A stretch of 10,615 nt of DNA from a virus (Duplodnaviria; Heunggongvirae; Uroviricota; Caudoviricetes). The stretch covers positions 1 through 10,615 of IMG/VR virus record IMGVR_UViG_3300028991_000014, one strand, 5' to 3'. The notes under the pieces are model-generated. The model was not told the origin of the DNA, searched no databases, and saw only the letters and a program-made list of their open reading frames with translations. Made by a program: the position numbers and the translations under genes. Shown here piece after piece: positions 1 through 10,615 of the stretch (within the stretch, counting starts at the first letter, position 1; every line of letters begins with the position of its first letter).

Positions 1-135
1 TTCCTGGAAACGGGCGCGCTAATCGAAAAGGATCGGCATGGATTTGTCAGATGTGCGCTATCCGGTGAAATGCTGGCAGTAAATCCTGAACAGATAGATG
101 CATTGATAGAATTTCTGAAAGGGATCAGGGACTGA
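1..135 (+). CDS. hypothetical protein, C-terminal fragment (gene enters the window from the left)
   Basis: Frame 1 is open from base 1 to TGA at 133-135 (...EFLKGIRD*), followed directly by a hairpin/T-run terminator. The 44 aa give no recognisable family. Confidence 0.4.
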   Translation, partial: FLETGALIEKDRHGFVRCALSGEMLAVNPEQIDALIEFLKGIRD

Positions 136-145
136 GCACCCATAC

Positions 146-179
146 AGCCGGAGCAATCCGGCTTTTTGTAATTTTTTGT
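146..179 (+). terminator. intrinsic terminator downstream of the partial upstream ORF
   Basis: Stem AGCCGGA (146-152) / TCCGGCT (157-163) with GCAA loop, followed by TTTTGTAATTTTTTGT (164-179). Confidence 0.55.
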
Positions 180-291
180 AAATTATTTGTTCGTGGTCGT
201 TCCACGTTGTTCATTGACCGGATCGGCATATTTTACCCGCCCTGAATCATGATTATTCTCGCCAGTGGTGCCAGGACGCTGGGGCCACTTT

Positions 292-333
292 CCCGCCTGT
301 TAATGTGCTCACCAATATTCATTACCAGGCGGG
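292..333. promoter_or_regulatory. 14-bp inverted repeat with 14-bp spacer upstream of the capsid gene (operator or RNA-structure candidate)
   Basis: CCCGCCTGTTAATG (292-305) and CATTACCAGGCGGG (320-333) are reverse complements with one mismatch. No T-run follows on either strand, so it is not a simple terminator. Confidence 0.3.
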
Positions 334-389
334 AAAACGATCGGTGCGATTGCTGATTTCCTTATGAAAAACGGTTGAGTTTTTGCCGC

Positions 390-427
390 GTCCTGGAGTT
401 CCTTACTTAACCCCAGGACTTTTTTTT
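390..427 (+). terminator. terminator-like hairpin plus T8 abutting the capsid start codon (possible regulated terminator or attenuator)
   Basis: Stem GTCCTGG (390-396) / CCAGGAC (413-419) with an inner GTT/AAC extension, followed by TTTTTTTT (420-427) and then ATG at 428. Confidence 0.3.
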
Positions 428-1585
428 ATGCCGAGAATAATCGAATTACGCCAGCAGAAAACCGCCATTAAAAATCAGATGCGCGACATGCTGGAGAACG
501 CGGAAAAAGAAAACCGCAGCCTTAACGATGCAGAGGGCGCAAAATTTGACGAATTACGCGCTAAAGCTGAATCCCTCGATAAAGACATTTCCCGCCTTGA
601 AGCCATTGCAGACGAAGAGCGCAGCAAGCCAGGTAAAAGCAGCCAGACCACTGACCCGGCAGAACTCCGCAACTACATCCTGACAGGTGAAACCCGCGCA
701 TTAAGTACAGGTGTCCCCGCTGATGGTGGTTATACCGTTATCCCTGAACTGAACACCGAAATCATGCGAATGCTGGCGGATGAGTCCACCATGCGCCGCA
801 TCTGTACCGTGAAAAAAATCAGCAGCAACGAGTTTAAGCAGCTTGTTTCCGCTGGCGGTGCGGTCGTTAACCACGGTGAAGAGGGTAAGGCACGCGAACA
901 GACCAGCACCCCGCAGATTAACGAGGTGAGCATTAAGCTGTATCCGGTCTATGCGTACCCGCGCACCACACAGGAAATCGTGGATTTTTCCGATGTGGAC
1001 ATCCTTTCATGGCTGACGGGCGAGATTGGCGACACCTTCACGGAAACCGAAGAAAGTGATCTGGTTGTGGGCGACGGTGACAAAAAAGCAAAAGGTTTTT
1101 TATCCGTACCCCGTGCAGAGAAGAACGACAAAGAACGTGATTTCGGAACGTTGCAGGTTATCAAGCCCGTTGATGATCTTGCCTGGACATCTGCGGACCC
1201 GCTGATCGATCTGAAATTTGCATTACGTAAAAAATACCGCAAGAACGCGGTATGGGTGGTTAACTCCACGACGGCGGCAAAACTCCAGAAGGTGAAGAAT
1301 GCGAACGGGGATTATATATGGCGTGACCGTTTACAGGCGGGTGATCCTGACACATTGCTGGGCCTTCCGGTCGAATATCTGGAGTTTATGCCGGATAACG
1401 TTATTGCCCTGGGCGACTTTAAACGCGGTTACTACATCGTTGATCACGAAACAGGTGTTCGCACCAGACCGGACAACCTGACAGAACCAGGATTCATCAA
1501 AATTTTCACGCAAAAATATTTAGGCGGTGGCGTGGTGGATTCGAACGCGATCAAGATTCTGGAACTGCCACAGGACGACGATTAA
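428..1585 (+). CDS. phage major capsid protein, HK97 family
   Basis: 385-aa product with a charged, coiled-coil-like N-terminal segment (delta-domain-like) followed by a capsid-type body; sits at the head of a protease/portal gene set. The ORF track begins at TTG 383; ATG 428 is chosen as start, but there is no clear SD so the start is uncertain. Confidence 0.8.
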   Translation: MPRIIELRQQKTAIKNQMRDMLENAEKENRSLNDAEGAKFDELRAKAESLDKDISRLEAIADEERSKPGKSSQTTDPAELRNYILTGETRALSTGVPADGGYTVIPELNTEIMRMLADESTMRRICTVKKISSNEFKQLVSAGGAVVNHGEEGKAREQTSTPQINEVSIKLYPVYAYPRTTQEIVDFSDVDILSWLTGEIGDTFTETEESDLVVGDGDKKAKGFLSVPRAEKNDKERDFGTLQVIKPVDDLAWTSADPLIDLKFALRKKYRKNAVWVVNSTTAAKLQKVKNANGDYIWRDRLQAGDPDTLLGLPVEYLEFMPDNVIALGDFKRGYYIVDHETGVRTRPDNLTEPGFIKIFTQKYLGGGVVDSNAIKILELPQDDD

Positions 1586-1595
1586 CAGCATACAG

Positions 1596-1620
1596 AAGGG
1601 GCTAAAAAGCCCCTTTAGTG
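1596..1620 (+). terminator. hairpin between capsid and protease genes (possible partial terminator or attenuator)
   Basis: Stem AAGGGGC (1596-1602) / GCCCCTT (1609-1615) with TAAAAA loop, followed by an interrupted T-run (TAGTGTTTTATG). Confidence 0.3.
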
Positions 1621-1640
1621 TTTTATGGGTGAAAAAAATT

Positions 1641-2198
1641 ATGAAGAGTATGGAAATCCGGTCATCGGAAATCACCACCAGCGCCAGCAACACGCTTACA
1701 GGCTACGTTGTTCGCTGGGATAACCTTTCGGAACTGTTATGGGGGGAGTTTTACGAAAAATTCCAGCGGGGGGCGTTTACTGAGTGGCTTGCGGCGGGTA
1801 ATGACGTTCGCGGCCTGTATGAGCATGACCACAGCATGTTACTGGGGCGCACCCGTTCTGGCACGCTGAAACTGGAAGAGGACGACACAGGGTTACGCTT
1901 TGAACTTACCCCACCGGATACCAGCACAGGGCGTGACGTTATCGAACTGGTTAAACGTGGTGATATATCCGGCATGAGCTTTGGCTTTCGTTCCCGTAAG
2001 GATGTATGGGATACCACAACAGATCCATGCGTGCGCACCGTGCTGGTGGCGGAACTGTACGAAATTACCGTTACATCCGTACCGGCTTACCCCGATTCCG
2101 GCGTGGAGCTGGCCCGCCGTTCCCTGTATGAGCAGCACCCCGAAAAAATGCCGCGTGCGGATAATCGCCGCTGGTGGGCGGATTTAGCGGGGGTGTGA
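1641..2198 (+). CDS. phage prohead (head maturation) protease, HK97 family
   Basis: Translation from ATG 1641 (MKSMEIRSSEITT...) has the HK97 prohead protease layout (LYEHDHS..., KRGDISGMSFGF, VPAYPDS). The 5' part of track ORF 1527 overlaps the capsid gene and is rejected. A GGTGA lies 9 nt upstream. Confidence 0.85.
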   Translation: MKSMEIRSSEITTSASNTLTGYVVRWDNLSELLWGEFYEKFQRGAFTEWLAAGNDVRGLYEHDHSMLLGRTRSGTLKLEEDDTGLRFELTPPDTSTGRDVIELVKRGDISGMSFGFRSRKDVWDTTTDPCVRTVLVAELYEITVTSVPAYPDSGVELARRSLYEQHPEKMPRADNRRWWADLAGV

Positions 2199-2199
2199 T

Positions 2200-3411
2200 A
2201 TGTGGCCTTTCAGAAGAAAAAAAGAGCAGCGCAGCATGACGCTTGATGAATTTATGGCGCTGGCTGGCACATCGAACACGGGGGCGGGTGAGTACGTATC
2301 ATCGGGGACAGCGGAATCACTCCCCGCCGTCATGAACGCCGTCACGGTCATATCTGAGGCGGTGGCTACTATGCCATGCTACCTGTACCTGGTACGCAAT
2401 GAGAAGGGGAAGGAGGCCCGCGAGTGGCTTGATTCTCATCCGGTCGATCATATCCTCAACGAGCGCCCGAACGCATGGCAAACCCCCTACCAGTTTAAGC
2501 GAATGATGATCCGCCACTGCCTGTTAAACGGTAATGCTTACGCGGTGATTCAGTGGGGGCGTGATGGTTTTCCGGCGGCTTTACATCCTTACCCGCCGCA
2601 GTCGGTGAACGTGGAGCAGACAGGAGAACACAACTGGCGCTATTGCATCACTGACGCCTACACCGGAAACACCCGCAACTATTTACCGTGGGAAGTACTT
2701 CACCTTCGTTACTCCACGGATGACGGCTTTATGGGGCGCTCACCTGTAACCATCTGCCGCGAATCGCTGGGGCTTGGGCTGGCCCAACAACGCCACGGCG
2801 CGAGCGTGATGCGTGATGGCATGATGGCAGCAGGGGTTATCACGTCAGGCGAATGGCTGGACGGCGTGAAGGGCAAACAGGCATTAGCCGCACTGGAACG
2901 CTATAAAGGGGCCAAAAACGCCGGAAAAACGCCCATCCTTGAAGGGGGCATGAGTTACCAGCAGCTGGGCATGAGTAACCAGGACGCCGAATGGCTGGCC
3001 TCCCGTCGCTTCACCATTGAAGACATCGCCCGAATGTTCAACGTCTCGCCGATTTTTCTGCAGGAATACAGCAACAGCACCTACAGCAATTTCAGCGAGG
3101 CAAGCCGCGCATTTCTCACCATGACGATGCGCCCGTGGCTGGCGAACTTTGAGCAGCAGATAAAAAACGCCTTGCTGGTGGTCTCGCCTGTACCTGGTAT
3201 CCGGTATCAGGTGGAGTTTGACAGCGCGGACCTGTTACGGGCCACACCTGGCGAACGCTTTGCCACCTATGAGCGAGGCATCAAATCCGGTGTTATGTGC
3301 CCGAACGAAGCCCGCGAACGAGAAGGGTTGTCTCCGCGTGATGGTGGTGATGAGTTCAGCCAGGCATGGAAACAGGAAGTAAAAATCAGCGAGGGAGAAA
3401 AACCGGAATGA
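2200..3411 (+). CDS. phage portal protein, HK97 family
   Basis: 403-aa product with portal hallmarks (ESLPAVMNAVTVISEAVATMP, LLNGNAYAVIQ, GGMSYQQLGMSNQDAEWL, IEDIARMFNVSP). GGGGG SD at 2189-2193; start is 1 nt after the protease stop. Confidence 0.9.
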   Translation: MWPFRRKKEQRSMTLDEFMALAGTSNTGAGEYVSSGTAESLPAVMNAVTVISEAVATMPCYLYLVRNEKGKEAREWLDSHPVDHILNERPNAWQTPYQFKRMMIRHCLLNGNAYAVIQWGRDGFPAALHPYPPQSVNVEQTGEHNWRYCITDAYTGNTRNYLPWEVLHLRYSTDDGFMGRSPVTICRESLGLGLAQQRHGASVMRDGMMAAGVITSGEWLDGVKGKQALAALERYKGAKNAGKTPILEGGMSYQQLGMSNQDAEWLASRRFTIEDIARMFNVSPIFLQEYSNSTYSNFSEASRAFLTMTMRPWLANFEQQIKNALLVVSPVPGIRYQVEFDSADLLRATPGERFATYERGIKSGVMCPNEAREREGLSPRDGGDEFSQAWKQEVKISEGEKPE

Positions 3412-3746
3412 ACATAGGGCGACTGCGTGACAGGGTAACGATTCAGACCCTGAAACAGACCAGAGCCATGACGGGCGAAATACTCGAAACGTGGGAGGAC
3501 GGTCACACACTCTGGGCAAGCGTGAACATGGTCAGCAGCAAGGAGGCCATTTCATCGGGTGCAGAGCTGGCGATTGGTACCGTAAGGATCTGGATACGGT
3601 ACCGGAAGGACATTAACGCCACCAGCCGGATAAAGGTCAATACGGGGCCGCTGGCGGGGCGTGTACTGAATATCATCGGGCAGCCGCTGCCGGATGCCGC
3701 CAGGACACGCCTTGAAATTCTTTGTCGTGAGGGCGCGGAAAAATGA
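3408..3746 (+). CDS. phage head-tail adaptor / head closure protein
   Basis: 112-aa product from ATG 3408 with motifs RVTIQ, TLWASV, RIWIRYRKDI, RLEILCRE typical of this family. Start overlaps the portal stop (ATGA); GAGGGAG SD at 3391-3397. Confidence 0.8.
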   Translation: MNIGRLRDRVTIQTLKQTRAMTGEILETWEDGHTLWASVNMVSSKEAISSGAELAIGTVRIWIRYRKDINATSRIKVNTGPLAGRVLNIIGQPLPDAARTRLEILCREGAEK

Positions 3747-4039
3747 CAGAAGAACTTATCACCCTGGAAGAAGTGAAACTCCATTGCCGCATCGATGGCG
3801 ACGAGGAAGACCAGTTAATCAGCGGATACATTGCCGCATCGCTTGAGGCGTGCCAGATACACATAGGCAGGCGCTTTGATGACGGGCTGGAGTTCACGCC
3901 AGCCATAAAGATTGGCTGCATGATGTTTATCGCTCACCTGTATGAGAATCGCCAGATTGTCGCGGATAACGCAAAAACACACGTACCCATGACGATTGGC
4001 GCACTCTGGACGGCTTACCGTGATGTGGGGGTGTACTGA
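3743..4039 (+). CDS. phage gp6-like head-tail connector protein
   Basis: 98-aa product MTEELITLEEVKLHCRIDGDEEDQLISGYIAAS... matches the gp6-like connector pattern. ATGA overlap with the adaptor stop. Confidence 0.8.
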   Translation: MTEELITLEEVKLHCRIDGDEEDQLISGYIAASLEACQIHIGRRFDDGLEFTPAIKIGCMMFIAHLYENRQIVADNAKTHVPMTIGALWTAYRDVGVY

Positions 4040-4479
4040 TGCCGTGGCAACCATTAAGACGATGTACAGAACCAGGCTGCAACAGGCGCGTGAAGTCCGG
4101 CAAGTGTGAGGAGCACAGACGCAGCGCACGCCAGCAGCAGGACAGCCGGAGAGGCAGCAGCAGGGAGCGAGGGTATACGAGGCAGTGGGAGAAATACCGC
4201 GCCATGTATCTGAGTAAAAACCCGTTATGTGCGCATTGCCTGGAAAAAGGAATATACAAGCCCGCCGTGGTGGTGGATCACATTATCCCAATCGATGGCG
4301 GTAATGATGTTCTCTTCTGGCCTGAGTGGAATCATCAGCCATTGTGCCAGGCGTGTCATAACCAGAAAACGAAATGGCTTGATCCGTCCACAAAAAACAA
4401 GCGTGCTGCGGGTGGATTCCGTGAGGAGGAAGAACGGGCCGCTAACCGCAATAACTGGATGTATGGCGCTGATGAATGA
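4039..4479 (+). CDS. HNH endonuclease (terminase-associated, cos-cleavage accessory type)
   Basis: HNH motif CAHC...VVDHIIPIDGGNDV...NHQPLCQACHNQKT; ATGA overlap with the connector stop; position immediately upstream of terS/terL is typical of HNH-dependent cos packaging. Confidence 0.85.
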   Translation: MPWQPLRRCTEPGCNRRVKSGKCEEHRRSARQQQDSRRGSSRERGYTRQWEKYRAMYLSKNPLCAHCLEKGIYKPAVVVDHIIPIDGGNDVLFWPEWNHQPLCQACHNQKTKWLDPSTKNKRAAGGFREEEERAANRNNWMYGADE

Positions 4480-4645
4480 GCGGGAACAAAACCGCCTTAT
4501 CCGTGGACTTATAAGGCAGCGTGACGCATGGAAGGCACAGGAAACAGGGCATAAAGATAAAGCATCAGGACGCGCAGAACGCATCACAGCGACGCGATTA
4601 AACGACCGTGACCGCGAGGTTATGGAATGTTTCCGCAATCGCTGA
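4472..4645 (+). CDS. hypothetical small basic protein (57 aa)
   Basis: ATG 4472 overlaps the HNH stop by 8 nt; translation MNEREQNRLIRGLIRQRDAWKAQ... is Arg/Lys-rich. It is the non-overlapping distal part of track ORF 4229-4645. No family recognised. Confidence 0.35.
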   Translation: MNEREQNRLIRGLIRQRDAWKAQETGHKDKASGRAERITATRLNDRDREVMECFRNR

Positions 4646-4768
4646 TGAGGCAGCCGGACGGGGTGGGGGGAGTTTTCAGGACGAACCCGACCCCGCCCAG
4701 AACCGACCGCCTCCCCAAATTTTTATGCACGGTAATTTTTTGAAAAATAATCTGGCGAAAAAATAAGC
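4646..4768. other. candidate cos (cohesive-end / terminase recognition) region
   Basis: Non-coding gap between the HNH region and terS with a G-run GGACGGGGTGGGGGGAG (4656-4672) followed by C-runs CCCGACCCCGCCC (4686-4698) and CGCCTCCCC (4708-4716). Position matches where HNH-dependent cos phages carry cos. Confidence 0.4.
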
Positions 4769-5125
4769 ATGGCAAGACCACCGAAAGCCCCCGCCTACCT
4801 GGATGATATCGCCGTGAAGCAGTGGCGGGAAAAATCGCGGCAGCTTGCGGAACGGGGAGACCTGACCCCTGCCGACTGGAGTAATCTGGAACTGTATTGC
4901 GTCAATTACTCGATATACCGGAAAGCCGTCGCAGACCTTGCGGCGCGCGGGTTCAGCATTGTTAACAGTCAGGGCGGAGAGAGCAGAAACCCCGCATTAA
5001 GCGCGAAATCCGACGCGGAAAGAGTGATGATAAAAATGGCCTCTTTGCTCGGTTTTGACCCGATAAGCCGCCGTAAAAATCCACCGGAAACAGAAGAAGA
5101 GGACGAGCTTGACCGCCTGGAATAA
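4769..5125 (+). CDS. phage terminase small subunit, P27 family
   Basis: 118-aa product MARPPKAPAYLDD...LELYCVNYSIYRKAV...GGESRNPAL...LLGFDPISRRK fits the P27-family TerS pattern; immediately upstream of and overlapping the large terminase gene. Confidence 0.85.
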   Translation: MARPPKAPAYLDDIAVKQWREKSRQLAERGDLTPADWSNLELYCVNYSIYRKAVADLAARGFSIVNSQGGESRNPALSAKSDAERVMIKMASLLGFDPISRRKNPPETEEEDELDRLE

Positions 5126-6770
5126 GTACGCAGAAGACGTAAAAACGGGCAAGATTCCGGCCTGTAAACGGCTGAAACAGGCCGTTAAACGATACTTTTC
5201 GGACCTTGAAAACCCCCTTTACATGTTCGATCGTGAGGTTGTTGAGCGGTTTATTGCCTTTTCCAGGGTGTGCCCGCACGTAAAAGGGCCGATGCGTGGA
5301 AGACCCATTGAGCTGGAACCGTGGCAGCAGTTTGCCTTTGCGTGCATCCTCGGCTTTAAGGTTAAGGCCACCGGAAGGCGCAAATACACGAGCGCCTTTA
5401 TCGAAGTGCCGCGCAAAAATGCGAAATCCACGACAGCCGCGATTCTGGCTAACTGGTTTCTGATTATGGAGAACGGGCAGCAGGATATTTACACCGCAGC
5501 GGTGAGCCGCGACCAGGCGCGGATCGTTTTTGATGATGCGCGTCAGATGTGCCTTTTATCCCGACCGTTACGCAAGAGAGTGAATATTCAGGCCCACAAG
5601 GTGATGCACCCGAAAAGCAACAGCCTGTTAAAGCCGCTGGCAGCAAAAGCGGCAACCATCGAGGGCACAAACCCAAGCCTTTCCATCGTGGACGAATACC
5701 ACCTACACCCCGATAACGGCGTTTATTCCGCGCTTGAGCTGGGGATGGGCGCACGTCCCGAAGGGCTGTTATTTGCCATTACCACATCGGGCAGTAACGT
5801 CGTTTCAGCCTGTAAACAGCACTATGATTATTGCTGCCAGATCCTGGACGGCGAAGAGGTCAACGATTCAATTTTTGTGCTGATTTACGAGCTGGACGAC
5901 GAAAACGAGGTTGATGATCCGGCGATGTGGATAAAGGCTAACCCTAACATCGATGTTTCCGTGGATCGTGAAAAACTGGCCTCAACCATCCAGAAAGCGC
6001 GGGGTATTCCGTCGCAATGGGTGGAGATGATGACAAAGCGATTTAATATCTGGTGCCAGGGGGCTACCCCGTGGATGGGTAACGGCGCATGGGCTGAGTG
6101 TGCCGGAACGTTCACGGAGGAAGATTTACACGGGCAGGAGTGTTACGCGGGGCTGGACTTATCATCAACCAGCGATATTTCCAGCGTGTGCTATGCCTTT
6201 CCGGTTGGTAAAACCATTATGCTGATTTCCCGTCATTATCTGCCGGAGTTCCAGCTACAGAACCCCGCCAATAAAAACCGCGCTGTCTATCGCCAGTGGG
6301 CTAAAGCGGGCTGGATACGCACAACGCCAGGTGACTGCATTGATTACGACCGGATCAGAGATGACATCATGCAGGATGCGGAGAAATTTAATATCAGGCT
6401 GGTGGGCTTTGATACGTGGAACGCCACGCACCTGAGAACGCAATTACAGGGGGCTGGTTTTGAGGTGGAGCCGTTCCCGCAAACCTACCTCAGATTCAGT
6501 CCGGCGGCGAAATCGTTCGAAGTTTTTGTTAACCGCAGGGTGATTGTGCATCGTGGCGATCCGGTGTTGTCCTGGTCGATGAGTAACGTCGTGATGCAGA
6601 GTGACGCGAACGCCAATATCAAGCCGAACAAGAAAAAATCACCGAACAAGATAGACCCGAGCGTAGCGGCGCTGATGGCGTTTGGTACATTCCAGGCAGA
6701 GCATGAGGATTTTGCTTTTGATATAAGCGACAGCCACCGCCAGAAACTGGAAGAATTTAGCGGGGTGTAA
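5109..6770 (+). CDS. phage terminase large subunit
   Basis: 553-aa product with an ATPase Walker A-like segment (EVPRKNAKSTTAA), DEYH Walker B-like motif and a C-terminal nuclease-type domain. Apparent TTG start at 5109 with AGAGGA SD 5 nt upstream; overlaps the terS 3' end. The first in-frame ATG would remove the conserved N-terminus. Confidence 0.9.
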   Translation: MTAWNKYAEDVKTGKIPACKRLKQAVKRYFSDLENPLYMFDREVVERFIAFSRVCPHVKGPMRGRPIELEPWQQFAFACILGFKVKATGRRKYTSAFIEVPRKNAKSTTAAILANWFLIMENGQQDIYTAAVSRDQARIVFDDARQMCLLSRPLRKRVNIQAHKVMHPKSNSLLKPLAAKAATIEGTNPSLSIVDEYHLHPDNGVYSALELGMGARPEGLLFAITTSGSNVVSACKQHYDYCCQILDGEEVNDSIFVLIYELDDENEVDDPAMWIKANPNIDVSVDREKLASTIQKARGIPSQWVEMMTKRFNIWCQGATPWMGNGAWAECAGTFTEEDLHGQECYAGLDLSSTSDISSVCYAFPVGKTIMLISRHYLPEFQLQNPANKNRAVYRQWAKAGWIRTTPGDCIDYDRIRDDIMQDAEKFNIRLVGFDTWNATHLRTQLQGAGFEVEPFPQTYLRFSPAAKSFEVFVNRRVIVHRGDPVLSWSMSNVVMQSDANANIKPNKKKSPNKIDPSVAALMAFGTFQAEHEDFAFDISDSHRQKLEEFSGV

Positions 6771-6783
6771 TGAGGTCAGCAGC

Positions 6784-7065
6784 ATGACAGAAGCCGAAAT
6801 ACTGCGATTAATCCGCCGCGTCTCTGGAATCAGCCAGCAGCATGACGAACAGGCCACGCAGCCGGACAGCGTGACCGCCGAAAATTATGCGCGTGTTGTT
6901 GCTGAGGTGATGCGCCGTGATGGTATCCAGCTTAATGATGTGGATATGCGCAACATACGGATCCGCGTTCTTGAAATGCTGGCCTACCGTCGCCGCGTGC
7001 AGACGTACAGGGAAAAAGCAAAAATTACGTACCACTGGAAGAAGCCGGAGCGGTTACGGCGGTAA
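6784..7065 (+). CDS. hypothetical protein (93 aa), last gene of the element
   Basis: ORF with GAGG SD about 8 nt upstream of ATG 6784; basic C-terminus (KKPERLRR); no recognisable family. Its stop abuts the first copy of a 28-bp direct repeat. Confidence 0.45.
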   Translation: MTEAEILRLIRRVSGISQQHDEQATQPDSVTAENYARVVAEVMRRDGIQLNDVDMRNIRIRVLEMLAYRRRVQTYREKAKITYHWKKPERLRR

Positions 7066-7070
7066 CTGGT

Positions 7071-7098
7071 TGAACTTAAAGCAAAGCGCAAAATTGCG
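7071..7098. repeat. 28-bp direct repeat, copy 1 (TGAACTTAAAGCAAAGCGCAAAATTGCG)
   Basis: Identical 28-mer recurs at 7290-7317; flanking bases are also partly similar (CGGTTAC...CTGGTTG). Confidence 0.8.
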
Positions 7099-7111
7099 TT
7101 GGCTGGTGGGT

Positions 7112-7131
7112 GAGTTGCAGATCTGCAACTC
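7112..7131. repeat. perfect 20-bp palindrome GAGTTGCAGATCTGCAACTC
   Basis: Exact self-complementarity read directly from the sequence. It lies between the two direct-repeat copies, together with further hairpins at 7203-7225 (8-bp stem CGATACCC/GGGTATCG) and 7263-7276 (GGCGGAATTCCGCC). Confidence 0.8.
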
Positions 7132-7289
7132 GACCATGAAATTACGGAAAATACCCGTAGTTTGGGTAGTAAGAGTAACACCCAGATTTTGGGGCTTACT
7201 CGCGATACCCAAATAAAGGGTATCGGTGGAAGAAATATCGTTTCTCATATGTGAGTACCGAGGGCGGAATTCCGCCTTCGGTTACTCGC

Positions 7290-7317
7290 TGAACTTAAAG
7301 CAAAGCGCAAAATTGCG
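7290..7317. repeat. 28-bp direct repeat, copy 2
   Basis: Identical to 7071-7098. Confidence 0.8.
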
Positions 7318-7644
7318 CTGATTACTGGTTGGAATTGTTCCAGAGTGCAAATTTACACTATGGCCTAACCCGTTGATATTTCCGGCAACCTCAATTTGAG
7401 GAGGCAGGGAACATCCCCTAAATCCGGTGATGTATTCGGCCCCTTTAACGGGTATTACGATAATCATAACACCTACCGAACAGGTAAAGGCCACCAGCCT
7501 GATTAACGTTTAACCGGAAAAAAAGCCAGGTATCCAATCTCGATATGTGGATCCCCATATCGACAGCAATGCCCCCTTAAAATTATCCGCCTTTATATTT
7601 CTTGTGCCTATTTGTTCCACGTTGTTTCATACAGTGCGCCGAAC

Positions 7645-7668
7645 GGTGTAGTCACTGGTGTAGTCATT
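7645..7668. repeat. tandem 12-bp direct repeats GGTGTAGTCACT / GGTGTAGTCATT near the element end
   Basis: Two adjacent near-identical units about 75 bp from the junction with tqsA. Candidate recombinase arm-type or regulator binding sites (inference). Confidence 0.5.
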
Positions 7669-7712
7669 TTGCGATTTTTGGCACTTTTTGTGGTGCAAAT
7701 TATTTAATTAAA

Positions 7713-7877
7713 TCAATGTGTTAAGTGAAATAAGTTATATATAACAGCAATAAATAATGCGAGAATAAACGGCACGATGATCTCGGCGGCAAAACGGATA
7801 CCGCAGAGAATAATGACCAGCATTCCCAACATAATGACGATTTTTAGGCCATTGAGCGTGATGATCGGCTTTGCCAT
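7713..7877 (-). pseudogene. tqsA: tqsA (ydgG) 5' fragment truncated by the element insertion
   Basis: Minus-strand translation from ATG 7877 gives [46 protein letters not shown], which matches the TqsA N-terminus as recalled. The frame then diverges into AT-rich element DNA (YNLFHLTH, stop at 7713-7715). Divergent from mdtJ as in E. coli. Confidence 0.7.
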
Positions 7878-8288
7878 GCTTGTCCCCGTTTTTTCTTCCT
7901 TTGCTAATAATAATGTCTTTTTCGCTCCGTCATCATAACGAAAATCAAACCGCTCAGGTAAAGAAGTGAAAATATTTTGAGTTAATTCTTAAGCTATGAT
8001 ACAAATCAGGCGTGTTCAACTACCGAGGACAATTATCATCCGCGATGACGAGAAGCAACACTGCGGATAATTGTAATATTATGGACAATTTGTTCAGGAC
8101 GTTATTTTCAACATTTACCCATCTTCGTACCTCATCCACTATCTTGCTCGTAGGTGAGCAGCACTGGCGCAACGCGCTTTAGTCCTTTCTTCTGCCTAAG
8201 CTTGCCCTATGCGCGGGGCTTGACCACTTTACTTTGGTTTCGCTGAATTAAGCGAAAATTAAAATAATTCTCTTGCAGGAGAAGGACA

Positions 8289-8654
8289 ATGTATATTTAT
8301 TGGATTTTATTAGGCCTGGCTATTGCTACAGAAATTACCGGTACGCTGTCAATGAAATGGGCGAGCGTCAGTGAGGGAAATGGCGGCTTTATTTTAATGC
8401 TGGTGATGATTTCTCTGTCGTATATATTTCTCTCTTTCGCCGTTAAAAAGATCGCCTTAGGCGTAGCTTATGCGCTGTGGGAAGGTATCGGTATTTTATT
8501 TATTACCTTGTTTAGCGTTTTGTTATTCGACGAAAGTTTATCGCTGATGAAAATTGCCGGGTTAACCACCCTGGTCGCCGGGATTGTGTTGATCAAATCA
8601 GGTACCCGTAAAGCGCGTAAACCTGAACTGGAGGTGAACCATGGCGCAGTTTGA
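8289..8654 (+). CDS. mdtJ: spermidine export protein MdtJ (SMR family)
   Basis: 121-aa four-TM SMR-type protein matching E. coli MdtJ as recalled; GGAGAAGGA SD upstream; overlaps mdtI start. Confidence 0.95.
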
Positions 8655-8970
8655 ATGGGTTCACGCCGCCTGGCTGGCATTGGCAATCGTGCTGGAAATC
8701 GTTGCTAACGTCTTTTTGAAATTTTCTGACGGCTTTCGTCGCAAAATATTTGGCTTGCTCTCCCTGGCGGCGGTGCTGGCTGCCTTTAGTGCGCTTTCTC
8801 AGGCCGTAAAAGGGATCGACTTGTCTGTCGCTTATGCATTGTGGGGCGGGTTTGGTATTGCCGCCACGTTAGCCGCAGGTTGGATCTTGTTTGGTCAACG
8901 GTTAAATCGTAAAGGCTGGATTGGCCTGGTCTTGCTGTTGGCTGGAATGATCATGGTGAAACTTGCCTGA
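8641..8970 (+). CDS. mdtI: spermidine export protein MdtI (SMR family)
   Basis: 109-aa SMR-type protein ([32 protein letters not shown]...); GGAGGTG SD; 14-nt overlap with mdtJ, consistent with the mdtJI operon. Confidence 0.95.
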
Positions 8971-8976
8971 TGAAGA

Positions 8977-9017
8977 CGCTGCCCGCGCTGTCGGGCAGCG
9001 TTTGAACATTATTTTTG
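8977..9017 (+). terminator. hairpin terminator between convergent mdtI and ydgD
   Basis: Stem CGCTGCCCG (8977-8985) / CGGGCAGCG (8992-9000) with CGCTGT loop, followed by TTTGAACATTATTTTTG. Confidence 0.5.
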
Positions 9018-9830
9018 CGACAGTTGATCCAGCTTGTCGCGAAAACCGGTAACAGAAATGGCCCGGTTATCGGCGCGCCAGCGATCTTTCGCGGCAGGAG
9101 CCGAACTTTGCACCCCAATTAATTGCCAGCCGTCATCGGTATGCAACATCAGAGGCGAACCGCTGTCACCCGGCAAGGTATCGCACTGATGTGACATCAC
9201 CGACGTTTGCGCCCAGCCAGTCACTTCACAGTTTTGATGACTGTATAACGTATCGAGATGATCTTCAGGATATCCCGCCTGAGTCACTTTACGACCAGCC
9301 GATTTTAATGCGGCAGTAAGCGCGGCTTTATCTCCCTCAAATAACGGCAACGGTGTAATGCCAGAAGGGGGATTACGCAGCACAATCAAGCCGAAGTCCC
9401 ATGGTGCAGCTGCGGGAGGAACAATCCAACCATCCCCATCTGCTTTTAACCGCTTTCCCAGTGTCGGATCAACGCGGCCTTCTATGTCGTGGATCTCATA
9501 GCGCCAAAGACCTTTATTTGACACAAAACGCAGCGCCACTGCTTTATCGGCTTTACCCTTTGGAGGTGTCAATAAACAGTGTCCTGCCGTTAATGCCAGA
9601 TTGGGTGCAATCAGCGTCGCCGTACATAAATTGCCGCTGGCCGTTTCCAGTTGCCCAACCGCATCCCACGGTGATTGGGTCGTGTCATTCACTGGCACAC
9701 GATCATCATGACCAAAAAACAGGGTGCTGACCTCATCGTTTGCCGATTTGGCAACGTCTGGTTTATCTGCAAACACAAAAGCAGACGTCAAACTAATTGC
9801 ACCCAACACTACAGCAATGGTTGTACGCAT
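9009..9830 (-). CDS. ydgD: secreted trypsin-like serine protease YdgD (peptidase S1 family)
   Basis: 273-aa product with signal-peptide-like N-terminus and catalytic motifs TAGHCLL (His) and GDSGSPL (Ser); position between mdtI and asr as in E. coli. Confidence 0.9.
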
Positions 9831-9929
9831 ATCACACTCTGGTGGGTAATTATGATTATTAAAAGCAAACCCTCATAAATACTATAGACGGGACGGGATG
9901 AAAGTGGGAGTAAAATCAGATAACTACAG

Positions 9930-10013
9930 TCAGGAAAGATAAAAACGGGCGGCAATCAGTGCGCATAAAATAAGGATGATAAGAATGAACTCAAAGCGAT
10001 AACGGCCCACCAT
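9930..10013 (-). CDS. ydgU: small membrane protein YdgU (27 aa)
   Basis: Minus-strand ATG at 10013 preceded by GGAGGG SD; translation MVGRYRFEFILIILILCALIAARFYLS is hydrophobic and matches the short ydgU ORF known between asr and ydgD. Not in the supplied ORF track (too short). Confidence 0.65.
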   Translation of the reverse strand: MVGRYRFEFILIILILCALIAARFYLS

Positions 10014-10030
10014 ACTACCCTCCGCTAAAG

Positions 10031-10087
10031 GCGGTGCTAAACGTTACCCGCTTAGCACCGTAATTTTCAGGCGCGAGGGGGCGCGCC
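10031..10087 (-). terminator. hairpins in the asr 3' region (candidate asr terminator)
   Basis: Two GC-rich stems: GGTGCTAA (10033-10040) / TTAGCACC (10052-10059), and GGCGCG (10070-10075) / CGCGCC (10082-10087). The U-tract on the minus-strand transcript is weak, so the call is tentative. Confidence 0.3.
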
Positions 10088-10105
10088 AGCATTACTGTTG
10101 AAAAC

Positions 10106-10414
10106 TTACGCTGCGGGTTGTGCAGCAGGTTTTGCCGGTTGCTGATGGCTGTGTTTCCCGGCGTGTTTCTTCGCTGCCTGCGCTTTTTGTTCAGGGGCTT
10201 TCTGTTCAGCTTTCGTATTTTTATGATGCTTTTTAGCCGCCTGCGCTTTCTGGGCAGGTGCTGCTTTATGCTGTTTTTTATGATGTGTCGTTTTCGCCGG
10301 CGCTGCTTTGGTGGTCGTCGCAGTCGGAGCAGGTGTGGTCGCAGTCTCTGCAGCAAAGGCGGCAGAAGACAGACCCATAGCAGCGGCAACAACCAGAGCT
10401 AATACTTTTTTCAT
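10106..10414 (-). CDS. asr: acid shock protein Asr
   Basis: 102-aa product [23 protein letters not shown]... with signal peptide and Lys/Ala/His-rich repeats, matching E. coli Asr as recalled. Start chosen at ATG 10414 (GAGGG SD 7 nt upstream) rather than the track's 10441. Confidence 0.9.
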
Positions 10415-10615
10415 TGTCATACCCTCAATTTGTTTTTTCATTTAACCCCACTGCGGGGCCGTTGAAATAACTATATCCCTGGGAATGGCAGACTTCCGTG
10501 AGTGGTTGGTTTCAGCGTGTAACGATATGTACAAACGCTGGGTAATGACTCCAACTTATTGATAGTGTTTTATGTTCAGATAATGCCCGATGACTTTGTC
10601 ATGCAGCTCCACCGA
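10415..10615 (-). promoter_or_regulatory. asr upstream regulatory region
   Basis: Non-coding DNA 5' of asr on the minus strand. asr is known to be acid-induced via two-component regulators, but no specific binding sites were mapped here. Confidence 0.35.

What the first reader, a model, noticed from the sequence alone, without database searches (positions are those of the whole stretch)
1..7739. Tail-less HK97-type capsid and packaging module at the end of an integrated element: candidate capsid-forming phage satellite (cf-PICI-like)
Seen in sequence: one co-directional block encodes major capsid, prohead protease, portal, head-tail adaptor, gp6-like connector, HNH endonuclease, a cos-like gap, P27-family TerS and TerL. 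It then runs through about 1 kb of non-coding DNA straight into the chromosomal junction. There are no tape-measure, tail tube, tail fibre, baseplate or lysis genes. The order capsid-protease-portal-connectors-HNH-cos-terS-terL is not the canonical HK97 prophage order (terS-terL-portal-protease-capsid-connectors-tail). Established knowledge: capsid-forming PICIs encode their own small capsid and terminase but borrow helper-phage tails. Inference: this is the packaging arm of such a satellite, and the adaptor/connector pair is the docking point for a helper tail.
Basis: partly seen in the sequence, partly recalled or inferred. Interest (0 to 1): 0.8.

Follow-up and report, generated by a model that had tools for sequence, protein, structure and literature searches.

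The report
Known capsid-forming phage satellite (EcCIEDL933-type)

Summary
Window 428-6770 carries, on one strand, capsid, S78 prohead protease, portal, head-closure ("adaptor"), gp6-like connector, HNH, P27-type TerS and TerL. All are intact, and there are no tail or lysis genes. The element ends at 7740/7741, where E. coli tqsA resumes (9-bp att core ATAACAGCA, 7741-7749).

Two details need correcting. The HNH-terS "gap" holds a conserved 60-aa gene (4463-4645), leaving 123 bp of non-coding DNA. The "1 kb non-coding" tail starts with a conserved 93-aa gene (6784-7065).

The interpretation also holds, but the element is already known. Window 1-7073 is 95.55% identical to EcCIEDL933, the experimentally characterised prototype cf-PICI, and the proteins are 88-100% identical. 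The capsid matches the prototype's solved T=4 capsid (PDB 9GYI).

Genomes 99.5-99.9% identical to the window carry AlpA, primase, SSB and PerC on the left; one of the three also reaches the integrase gene. Other relatives with both junctions are 15.06-15.25 kb. None has tail or lysis genes.

New here: the 123-bp gap mirrors the physical cos end of HK97 (G-run; GACCGCC..CCAAA exactly 49 nt before terS), so the cut is predicted near 4710-4720.

Novelty: already known. Interest: low.

The parts
1..135 (+). 3' end of a conserved 74-aa gene that precedes the capsid gene in all relatives; function unknown
   Evidence: phrog_1957, E 3e-22. Corresponds to L001 14911-15135 and to the 74-aa gene in L013-L030.
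428..1585 (+). HK97-fold major capsid protein, 385 aa. Homologue of EcCIEDL933 gene 1786, which forms a T=4, 47.5 nm capsid after N-terminal cleavage.
   Evidence: PF05065 E 2e-61. PDB 9GYI E 4e-253 over the full length. 98.4% identical to the EDL933 protein. Capsid structure described in 10.1101/2025.02.11.637232.
1641..2198 (+). S78 prohead (head maturation) serine protease, 185 aa. An upstream GTG at 1527 is a possible alternative start.
   Evidence: PF04586 E 6e-48. phrog_80 E 4e-66. 96.8% identical to EDL933.
2200..3411 (+). Portal protein, 403 aa
   Evidence: PF04860 E 3e-90. phrog_12 E 8e-116. 98.8% identical to EDL933.
3408..3746 (+). Head closure protein Hc1, 112 aa, called 'head-tail adaptor' in the cf-PICI papers and in PDB 2KZ4. 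It is the distal neck component that would meet the helper tail.
   Evidence: PF05521 E 1e-22. phrog_25 Hc1. PDB 2KZ4 E 3e-68. 96.4% identical to EDL933. 47% identical to HK106 gp07, the highest of the eight module proteins compared with the helper phage.
3743..4039 (+). gp6-like head-tail adaptor Ad1, 98 aa, called 'head-tail connector' in the cf-PICI papers
   Evidence: PF05135 E 3e-12. phrog_40 Ad1 E 3e-35. 99.0% identical to EDL933.
4039..4479 (+). HNH endonuclease, 146 aa, the packaging co-factor of HK97-type cos terminases. It is the most diverged gene of the module.
   Evidence: PF01844. phrog_144 E 1e-42. 87.7% identical to EDL933. dS 0.55 against 0.03-0.25 in the other module genes, which indicates a recombinant patch.
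4463..4645 (+). It is probably the homologue of EcCIEDL933 'hypothetical gene 1792', whose mutation severely reduced transfer. That assignment is an inference from counting genes on from capsid = 1786.
   Evidence: phrog_3173 E 1e-34, full length. Annotated in L001, L006, L008 and L009. Gene 1792 phenotype; capsid = 1786.
4646..4768 (+). True HNH/orf60-terS intergenic region and candidate HK97-type cos site. It has a G-run at 4660-4670, an invariant block GGGGTGGGGG..GTTTTCAGGAC at 4660-4682, and GACCGCCTCCCCAAA at 4705-4719. Cleavage is predicted near 4710-4720.
   Evidence: The block is invariant in five cf-PICI relatives spanning about 70-99% nucleotide identity. The physical right end of HK97 (...G9...GACCGCCGCCAAA|) lies 49 nt before its terS ATG. 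The window motif also ends exactly 49 nt before its terS ATG. The alignment score beats 500 of 500 shuffles.
4769..5125 (+). Small terminase subunit, P27 / Terminase_4 family, 118 aa
   Evidence: PF05119 E 1e-23. 100% identical to the EDL933 protein, WP_000113645.1 in both.
5109..6770 (+). Large terminase subunit (ATPase plus nuclease domains), 553 aa, intact
   Evidence: PF03354 + PF20441. phrog_9 E 2e-179. 98.2% identical to EDL933. Some relatives carry a split TerL (L022, L024, L029); this copy does not.
6784..7065 (+). Conserved 93-aa gene of unknown function, the last gene of the element. It is shared with classical-type PICIs.
   Evidence: phrog_1561 E 1e-56, full length. 89.2% identical to EDL933. 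It is the only matching part of the query in roughly 1000 further E. coli genomes. A homologue sits at the 3' end of a classical-type PICI in L010. No PDB, Pfam or PADLOC match.
7066..7740 (.). Non-coding, mosaic right arm of the element (attR arm). It contains 53-nt direct repeats (7060-7112 and 7279-7331) around a highly structured 219-bp unit, and tandem arm-type repeats GGTGTAGTCA x2 (7645-7666).
   Evidence: Repeats. Fold z-scores -8.9 and -8.45. Window 7451-7722 is 80.8% identical to the EDL933 right arm, and 7074-7450 has no continuous counterpart there. No PHROG hit for the small ORFs. No Rfam hit.
7741..7749 (.). 9-bp att core ATAACAGCA, the right-hand copy, which is also nt 129-137 of tqsA. 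This is the element/chromosome boundary.
   Evidence: Comparison of window, K-12 and L001 junctions. The core occurs exactly twice in five full-length tqsA-type relatives.
7741..7877 (-). 5' remnant (137 nt) of the chromosomal gene tqsA (autoinducer-2 exporter), which the insertion interrupts
   Evidence: Aligns to K-12 L003 4050-3914, the start of tqsA. Annotated as a pseudogene in L001.

Best explanation
Window 1-7749 is the right-hand 7.7 kb, from one upstream gene to attR, of an integrated capsid-forming phage-inducible chromosomal island (cf-PICI). It is of the EcCIEDL933 type and is inserted in the E. coli gene tqsA.

Proposed cycle:
1. An HK97-like, HNH-dependent cos siphophage acts as helper; HK106 and HK446 do so for the prototype. 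It activates the island's AlpA, which lies left of the window.
2. The P4-type integrase excises the island at the 9-bp core ATAACAGCA, and a D5-type primase replicates it into concatemers.
3. The window's operon then builds the head. The HK97-fold capsid protein assembles on the portal, the S78 protease trims its N-terminal domain, and a small T=4 shell results that holds about 15 kb but not the roughly 40 kb helper genome.
4. The island's own TerS, TerL and HNH recognise and cut its own cos site in the 123-bp gap upstream of terS (predicted near 4710-4720). They package unit-length island DNA.
5. Ad1 (3743-4039) and Hc1 (3408-3746) close the portal and present the surface to which a preformed helper tail attaches. 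The helper's lysis genes release the particles.

What is shown and what is inferred:
- Shown here: gene content and order, intact ORFs, the boundary, near-identity to the prototype, purifying selection, and absence of tail and lysis genes.
- Shown elsewhere, for the 95.5%-identical prototype: induction through alpA, the requirement for each packaging gene, T=4 capsids, dependence on helper tails, and adaptor/connector control of tail choice.
- Inferred: that this copy is active, its left arm, the cos position, and that it uses HK106-type tails.
For: Gene families are confirmed.

Relation to the prototype. Window 1-7073 is 95.55% identical to EDL933's own element, with proteins 88-100% identical and TerS 100%. 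The capsid matches PDB 9GYI, the EcCIEDL933 T=4 capsid, at E 4e-253. The adaptor matches PDB 2KZ4 at E 3e-68.

Selection. dN/dS across nine genes against the prototype is 0.09, and every ORF is intact.

Boundary. The junction with tqsA is clean and the 9-bp core is duplicated.

Whole-element context. Relatives 99.5-99.9% identical to the window carry AlpA, primase, SSB and PerC on the left, and one reaches the integrase gene. Other relatives that span both junctions are 15.06-15.25 kb. None has a tail or lysis gene.

Distribution. The same module sits at four or more att sites and in 404 of 5426 complete E. coli genomes.

Distinct from phages. No phage record exceeds 70% nucleotide identity, and four of the six hits are records of 10.7-16.5 kb or short fragments. 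Identity to helper HK106 proteins is only 22-47%, highest for Hc1.

cos site. The gap has HK97-like architecture with identical 49-nt spacing to terS.

SatelliteFinder's definition of the family is.
Against: The window stops inside the element. The integrase, alpA and primase of this particular copy are therefore not seen and are inferred from relatives 99.5-99.9% identical.

Activity of this copy is untested. Some relatives are decayed, with a split TerL in L022, L024 and L029.

HNH is the most diverged protein (87.7%). The replication module in tqsA-type relatives differs from EcCIEDL933, which has DUF927 rather than a D5_N primase. Helper range could therefore differ.

The cos assignment rests on analogy with HK97 termini, not on mapped ends. 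The vB_KppS-Ant record has no counterpart of about 69 alignment columns in the gap, including the GACCGCC..CCAAA motif, and this is unexplained.
Confidence: 0.93

Rival explanations
1. It is a decayed HK97-like prophage that lost its tail, lysis and lysogeny modules by deletion, leaving a head and packaging remnant that is not a mobile satellite.
For: All eight proteins belong to phage head and packaging families. HNH-cos-terS adjacency is the same as in HK97 and HK106.
Against: The element is bounded by a duplicated 9-bp att core and is 15.06-15.25 kb in five relatives. The same compact architecture recurs at four or more att sites and in 404 complete genomes. dN/dS is 0.09. No phage in 50,697 records exceeds 70% identity. 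Proteins are only 22-47% identical to HK106, and the capsid-protease-portal order is reversed. The prototype is experimentally mobile.
Confidence: 0.02
2. It is a genuine cf-PICI by descent, but this copy is an inactive relic. Possible causes are a damaged left arm, loss of a compatible helper, or a non-functional HNH/cos pairing after recombination.
For: The left arm is not in the window. Relatives include decayed copies with a split TerL (L022, L024, L029) and one with a truncated gene downstream of alpA (L001). HNH is a recombinant patch with dS 0.55. orf60 has dN/dS of about 1.1, though from only 5 changes.
Against: All ten complete ORFs in the window, and the partial gene at 1-135, are free of internal stop codons. 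Nine of them align codon-for-codon without gaps to the prototype's genes; the protease is annotated 5 aa shorter than the prototype's (185 against 190 aa). The exact HNH allele is found on 18 contigs, and the eight examined have intact modules. The cos-like motifs are intact.
Confidence: 0.2
3. It is a classical (non-capsid-forming) PICI or a P4-like satellite that redirects helper capsids and the helper terminase.
For: Relatives have a P4-type integrase, AlpA, an Icd-like protein and a D5-type primase on the left. orf93 and the 219-bp unit are shared with a classical-type PICI (L010).
Against: The window encodes its own capsid, portal, Ad1, Hc1 and TerL, which are forbidden components for PICI in SatelliteFinder. 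There is no lambda-type cosN. orf93 has no PDB match at all, so no match to the solved Rpp structures.
Confidence: 0.01

Closest known systems
EcCIEDL933, the prototype cf-PICI of E. coli O157:H7 EDL933 (Alqurainy et al., bioRxiv 10.1101/2022.09.08.507074; He et al., bioRxiv 10.1101/2025.02.11.637232)
   Same: [quoted passage not shown] DNA identity is 95.55% over window 1-7073, and proteins are 88-100% identical, with TerS identical. The capsid sequence matches the solved T=4 capsid 9GYI. The integrase of a tqsA-type relative (L001) is 90.5% identical. The attR arm is 80.8% identical.
   Different: - Insertion site is tqsA (core ATAACAGCA) rather than the roxA-phoQ intergenic region (core GGACATATTT).
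- HNH is only 87.7% identical.
- The accessory stretch 7074-7450 is replaced and includes an extra 219-bp structured unit.
- In tqsA-type relatives the replication region is non-homologous: a 605-aa D5_N primase instead of a 710-aa DUF927 protein.
Helper phages HK106 and HK97 (HNH-dependent cos siphoviruses)
   Same: HK97-fold capsid, S78 protease, portal, Ad1, Hc1, HNH and TerL families. HNH-cos-terS adjacency. The cos region has a G-run and a GACCGCC..CCAAA motif 49 nt before terS.
   Different: Identity to HK106 proteins is only 22-47%, and the two TerS proteins show no significant similarity. The head genes are in reversed order. There is no gp10/neck protein, tail terminator, tube, tape measure, fibres, holin or endolysin. 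Genome size is 15 kb against 40-41 kb, and the capsid is T=4 rather than T=7.
Classical E. coli PICIs (EcCICFT073 type; Fillol-Salom et al. 2018 and 2019, PMC6092414 and PMC6739421)
   Same: Integrase, AlpA and primase left arm. The 93-aa terminal gene and the downstream 219-bp unit are shared with a classical-type island (L010).
   Different: Classical PICIs have no own capsid, portal or TerL. They carry lambda-like cosN sites and Rpp and are packaged by the helper terminase. The window has none of these.
Satellite-sized records filed as phages (Escherichia phage vB_KppS-Ant LR881103, 16.5 kb; Pasteurella phage Pmp8, 15.3 kb)
   Same: In vB_KppS-Ant the packaging-module order is the same at about 70% nucleotide identity, together with an integrase and a primase. 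For Pmp8 only the annotated features under the match were seen (TerL, portal, major head protein, head maturation protease, TerS), at 66.7% identity.
   Different: The sequences are distant. vB_KppS-Ant carries a 765-aa tape-measure-family protein after TerL, where the window has only orf93 and non-coding DNA.

Membership tests
cf-PICI (capsid-forming PICI) | Own major capsid protein | tested here: met
   428-1585: PF05065 E 2e-61; 9GYI E 4e-253.
cf-PICI (capsid-forming PICI) | Prohead serine protease | tested here: met
   1641-2198: PF04586 E 6e-48.
cf-PICI (capsid-forming PICI) | Portal protein | tested here: met
   2200-3411: PF04860 E 3e-90.
cf-PICI (capsid-forming PICI) | [quoted passage not shown] | tested here: met
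   3408-3746 (PF05521 / phrog_25; 2KZ4) and 3743-4039 (PF05135 / phrog_40).
cf-PICI (capsid-forming PICI) | HNH endonuclease plus own TerS and TerL | tested here: met
   4039-4479, 4769-5125 and 5109-6770. All are intact.
cf-PICI (capsid-forming PICI) | Integrase, AlpA-type regulator and primase-replicase in the left arm | tested here: inconclusive
   These lie outside the window, so they were not seen for this copy. The set is present in every relative examined that reaches that far. That includes L016, L017 and L019, which are 99.5-99.9% identical to window 1-10540. Of these three, only L017 reaches the integrase gene, and L016 and L019 start within alpA. L001 was checked directly: integrase PF13356 + PF00589, AlpA PF05930 E 1e-16, primase D5_N / Pox_D5.
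cf-PICI (capsid-forming PICI) | No tail genes and no holin or lysis genes (forbidden components in SatelliteFinder) | tested here: met
   None in window 1-7740. None in the 18 relative loci listed, nor in L001.
cf-PICI (capsid-forming PICI) | Size about 10-18 kb, bounded by att repeats | tested here: met
   The right boundary and core are in the window (7741-7749). Core-to-core distance is 15,057-15,245 bp in five tqsA-type relatives. The size of this copy is by proxy.
cf-PICI (capsid-forming PICI) | Helper-phage induction, small own capsids, exclusive self-packaging, dependence on helper tails | not testable with these tools
   Shown experimentally for EcCIEDL933, which is 95.55% identical. 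Not tested for this copy.
HK97-like temperate phage (complete or defective prophage) | Tail module (terminator, tube, tape measure, tip, fibres) and lysis cassette contiguous with the head genes; genome about 40 kb | tested here: not met
   Compare the HK106 and HK97 maps with the window and its relatives. The element ends 970 bp after TerL.
Classical Gram-negative PICI (EcCICFT073 type) | Lambda-like cosN and Rpp; no portal, connectors or TerL | tested here: not met
   No cosN within 2 mismatches, and none in the 3' arm even at 3 mismatches. orf93 has no PDB match, so no match to the Rpp structures. Portal, connectors and TerL are present.
P4-like satellite | Sid, Psu and Delta capsid-size and transactivation genes; uses the helper P2 capsid protein | tested here: not met
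   No such family among window proteins or L001 left-arm proteins. The element has its own capsid gene.

The most novel reading that the evidence does not exclude
The tqsA-type variant carries something the prototype lacks. This is a 219-bp, very strongly structured unit (window about 7085-7300) bracketed by 53-nt direct repeats, sitting just after the terminal 93-aa gene. The same unit occurs at 93-98.5% identity at the 3' end of a classical, non-capsid-forming PICI and in other E. coli genomes.

The most novel reading not excluded is that it is a small exchangeable cargo cassette, for example a satellite-borne regulatory RNA or a protein-binding module. Such a cassette would move between satellite families by recombination at the repeats. 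A more mundane reading, a cluster of terminators plus recombination scars, is more likely.
Probability: 0.12. Interest if true: 0.4.

Novelty: already known. Interest (0 to 1): 0.1.

Why it matters
As a discovery it matters little. cf-PICIs were described in 2022-23. Their prototype is 95.5% identical to this sequence, its capsid structure is solved, and tools such as SatelliteFinder already detect the family, which they find in 13% of Enterobacteriaceae genomes.

It is useful as a positive control, because a reader working from raw sequence alone identified the element class, its boundary and its missing half correctly.

Three small additions come out of this check:
- a sequence-based prediction of the island's cos site, by analogy with the physical ends of HK97;
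- the observation that the head-closure protein is the module protein most similar to the helper's, which fits its role as the tail-docking surface;
- documentation that this variant interrupts the AI-2 exporter gene tqsA in 191 of 5426 complete E. coli genomes.

Tried and rejected
- **Rfam.** A scan of the whole window at E up to 1 found nothing. The structured 3' unit is therefore not a described RNA family.
- **Classical-PICI cos idea.** I tested whether the 3' structured unit is a classical-PICI, lambda-type cos site. GGGCGGCGACCT has no match within 2 mismatches in the window or in L010, and the 3-mismatch hits are at chance level and lie elsewhere. Rejected.
- **orf93 as an Rpp-like protein.** It has no PDB match even at E 1, no Pfam match and no PADLOC match. 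Function remains unknown.
- **orf60 and orf93 as defence genes.** No PADLOC match.
- **Small ORFs in 7054-7494 as holins or other phage proteins.** No PHROG hit.
- **Promoter and terminator scan of 4400-8300.** Counts were at shuffle level, so it was uninformative.
- **Direct blastn-short of the gap against the HK106 HNH-terS region.** This gave only 7-8-mers at E above 1. The resemblance became clear only when anchored on HK97's physical ends.
- **The vB_KppS-Ant record ends as evidence for cos.** The record breaks within the gap, but it has no counterpart of about 69 alignment columns there, so it is not conclusive.
- **Supplementary Table S2 (attB sites) of the 2022 preprint.** It is not held. 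I could not check whether tqsA is one of the six published sites.
- **Locating the EDL933 element.** My first guess for its position was wrong. It was found on the second try.
- **Large searches not run.** I did not run the large protein-database, structure-prediction or metagenome searches, because identity to a published, structurally solved prototype made them unnecessary.

Full report

Yes. The long + strand ORFs of window 383-6770 each match one phage head or packaging family with strong E-values, in Pfam and PHROGs:

| Gene | Coordinates | Family evidence |
|---|---|---|
| Major capsid | 428-1585 | PF05065, E 2e-61 |
| Prohead protease | 1641-2198 | PF04586 |
| Portal | 2200-3411 | PF04860, E 3e-90 |
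| Head closure Hc1 ("head-tail adaptor") | 3408-3746 | PF05521 / phrog_25 |
| gp6-like Ad1 ("connector") | 3743-4039 | PF05135 / phrog_40 |
| HNH | 4039-4479 | PF01844 |
| TerS (P27 / Terminase_4) | 4769-5125 | PF05119 |
| TerL | 5109-6770 | PF03354 + PF20441 |

Nothing in 1-7740 matches a tail, holin or lysin family.

The window is E. coli chromosome. From 7741 onward it aligns to K-12 at 98.9%, beginning at nt 137 of tqsA and continuing through mdtU, mdtJ, mdtI, ydgD and asr.

**2. Corrections to the description**

- The "cos-like gap" between HNH and terS is not empty. ORF 4463-4645 (60 aa) matches phrog_3173 over its full length (E 1e-34) and is annotated in every relative. The real intergenic stretch is 4646-4768, 123 bp.
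- The "about 1 kb of non-coding DNA" after TerL starts with ORF 6784-7065 (93 aa; phrog_1561, E 1e-56). About 675 bp is truly non-coding.
- Window 1-135 is the tail of another conserved gene (phrog_1957), so the element runs off the left edge.
- Start codons are refined using the solved-structure sequences. The capsid starts at 428 (385 aa, as in 9GYI). The adaptor starts at 3408 (112 aa, as in 2KZ4).

**3. What it is**

A megablast against 5,426 complete E. coli genomes finds at least 80% of the whole window in 191 genomes, and at least 80% of the packaging module in 404.

In the best complete-genome hit (L001, 99.4% identical over the element part) the module is the right half of an island inserted in tqsA. 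The left half there reads integrase, AlpA-type HTH, Icd-like protein, DUF4222, DNA primase, SSB and PerC.

The literature identifies this architecture as the capsid-forming PICI family, whose prototype EcCIEDL933 (15.4 kb) lies in strain EDL933. I located that element in the EDL933 chromosome between roxA and phoQ (L006) and compared it with the window.

- Window 1-7073 is 95.55% identical in DNA and collinear with it.
- Protein identities are capsid 98.4%, protease 96.8%, portal 98.8%, adaptor 96.4%, connector 99.0%, HNH 87.7%, orf60 93.3%, TerS 100%, TerL 98.2% and orf93 89.2%.
- The capsid matches PDB 9GYI at E 4e-253. That entry is the 3.24 Å cryo-EM model of the EcCIEDL933 T=4, 47.5 nm capsid.
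- The adaptor matches PDB 2KZ4, "putative head-tail adaptor".

**4. The missing left half**

The window's HNH allele occurs on 18 contigs. Eight were examined, and all are at the tqsA site with the same organisation. L019 is 99.88% identical to window 1-10540 with no gaps. L016 and L017 are 99.5-99.6% identical. These three loci reach left as far as AlpA, and L017 also reaches the end of the integrase gene.

The window's capsid allele is indexed in 861 blocks of the collection. Ten full-length elements were examined. All read integrase, AlpA, variable small genes, DUF4222, primase (D5_N or DUF927), SSB, PerC, the 74-aa gene, capsid through TerL, then orf93. No tail or lysis gene appears in any of them.

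In five tqsA-type relatives the core ATAACAGCA occurs exactly twice, 15,057-15,245 bp apart. The same capsid allele also occurs in islands next to roxA/phoQ, next to clpS and at a fourth site. More distant relatives sit at allE/allC and beside fis. A remnant fixed by deletion would not be found at many different attachment sites, whereas a mobile element would.

**5. Not a phage remnant**

- Against 50,697 phage records, nothing exceeds 70% nucleotide identity. Four of the six hits are records of 10.7-16.5 kb or short fragments.
- Against the helper phage HK106, protein identities are 22-47%, and the two TerS proteins show no significant similarity.
- dN/dS between the window and the prototype over nine genes is 0.09, and all ORFs are intact. 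The module is therefore under purifying selection.

**6. Gene order**

HK106 and HK97 read terS, terL, portal, protease, capsid, Ad1, Hc1, gp10, tail terminator, then the tail genes, with HNH as the last gene before cos.

The window reads capsid, protease, portal, Hc1, Ad1, HNH, cos, terS, terL. The HNH-cos-terS-terL adjacency, however, is the canonical HK97 arrangement on the circular map.

With cos in the gap, the packaged linear genome would start at terS and end at HNH. The integration and replication genes would lie in the middle.

**7. The cos site (new here; inference)**

Five cf-PICI relatives spanning about 70-99% nucleotide identity keep an invariant block, GGGGTGGGGG..GTTTTCAGGAC, at window 4660-4682.

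The HK97 record is linear with physical ends. Its right end reads ...G9...CCCCAAATGACCGCCGCCAAA, and terS starts 49 nt into the left end. The window has a G-run at 4660-4670 and GACCGCCTCCCCAAA ending at 4719, also exactly 49 nt before the terS ATG. A global alignment of the two regions beats 500 of 500 shuffles.

I therefore predict an HK97-type cos with cleavage near 4710-4720. One loose end remains: the vB_KppS-Ant record breaks inside this gap and has no counterpart of about 69 alignment columns, including the GACCGCC..CCAAA motif.

**8. Tail docking**

Published complementation shows that the cf-PICI adaptor and connector determine which tails can be used. EcCIEDL933's pair works with HK106 tails and not with HK022 tails. 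The window's pair is 96.4% and 99.0% identical to EcCIEDL933's, so HK106-type tails are the expected partner (inference).

Hc1 is also the module protein most similar to its HK106 counterpart, at 47% against 37% or less for the others. That fits a surface constrained to fit the helper's tail.

The island lacks the gp10-family neck protein and the tail terminator that the helper encodes. These would arrive with the tail.

**9. How this copy differs from the prototype**

- The insertion site differs: tqsA with core ATAACAGCA, against roxA-phoQ with core GGACATATTT. The integrase of the tqsA-type relative L001 is 90.5% identical, and the arm-type repeats are slightly different.
- HNH has dS 0.55 against 0.03-0.25 in the other module genes, which marks a recombinant patch (identity dip at 4001-4400).
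- The replication region of tqsA-type relatives is non-homologous to EcCIEDL933's.
- Window 7074-7450 has no continuous counterpart in the prototype.

These are ordinary mosaic differences within a known family.

**10. Verdict**

The element is an EcCIEDL933-type cf-PICI, so it is already known and interest is low.

Remaining uncertainty:
- The left arm of this particular copy has not been seen.
- Its activity has not been tested.
- The cos position is a prediction by analogy with HK97, not a mapped end.

Noticed in passing
window 7060-7340: 53-nt direct repeats (7060-7112 and 7279-7331, 83% identical, each with the hairpin AGCGCAAAATTGCG) bracket a 219-bp unit full of palindromes (7107-7136, 7151-7223, 7257-7282). 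The unit folds far better than shuffles on both strands (z -8.9 and -8.45). It is absent from EcCIEDL933. It is found at 93-98.5% identity in other E. coli genomes, for example after the orf93 homologue of a classical-type PICI next to clpS (L010 9001-9202). There is no Rfam hit and no lambda-type cosN. Its function is unknown.
   Followed up: partly
window 6784-7065: The 93-aa terminal gene (phrog_1561) is far more widespread than the cf-PICI module. In roughly 1000 further E. coli genomes it is the only part of the query that matches, and it also ends a classical-type PICI (L010 8701-8982). It has no Pfam, PDB or PADLOC match.
   Followed up: partly
window 10541-10615: The last 75 bases are, from memory of the IS1 sequence, the terminal inverted repeat of IS1. 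It is inserted between asr and ynfM. Most relatives stop aligning at 10540. Only H9 (strain 14EC001) aligns through to 10615, and it has an IS1A-family transposase annotated under the match.
   Followed up: partly
window 7741-7877 (- strand): The island interrupts tqsA (autoinducer-2 exporter) after nt 137. The short N-terminal remnant runs into island DNA as a 54-aa ORF (7713-7877). The same window, with the island and its tqsA-side chromosomal flank, is held (at least 80% of it) by 191 of 5426 complete E. coli genomes. A phenotype is untested.
   Followed up: partly
window 4001-4400: The HNH gene is a recombinant patch relative to EcCIEDL933. Nucleotide identity is 83-89.5% against 94-100% in the flanking segments, and dS is 0.55.
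   Followed up: yes
L007 (LR881103, Escherichia phage vB_KppS-Ant) 2036-4333: This 16.5 kb record, deposited as a phage, has cf-PICI organisation. Directly after TerL it encodes a 765-aa protein that matches the tape-measure family phrog_2854 almost end to end (E 2e-176). A tape-measure-like gene in an otherwise tail-less satellite is odd. It has no PADLOC match.
   Followed up: partly
L008 (NZ_CM128596.1, strain 100117) 11748-13257: A relative of about 80% identity, inserted between allE and allC, has portal followed directly by the connector gene, with no head-closure (Hc1) gene annotated between them.
   Followed up: no
L022, L024, L029 (islands next to clpS), TerL region about 14680-16340: Islands with the identical capsid allele have TerL split into 257-aa and 231- or 297-aa ORFs. 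L022 also has shortened protease, portal and HNH. These are decaying copies of the same satellite.
   Followed up: no
window 7363-7413; L006 15810-15849, 16090-16126, 16138-16186: A 40-50-nt motif that occurs once in the window's right arm is repeated three times in the EcCIEDL933 right arm and twice in L008. These are possible protein-binding iterons in the attR arm.
   Followed up: no
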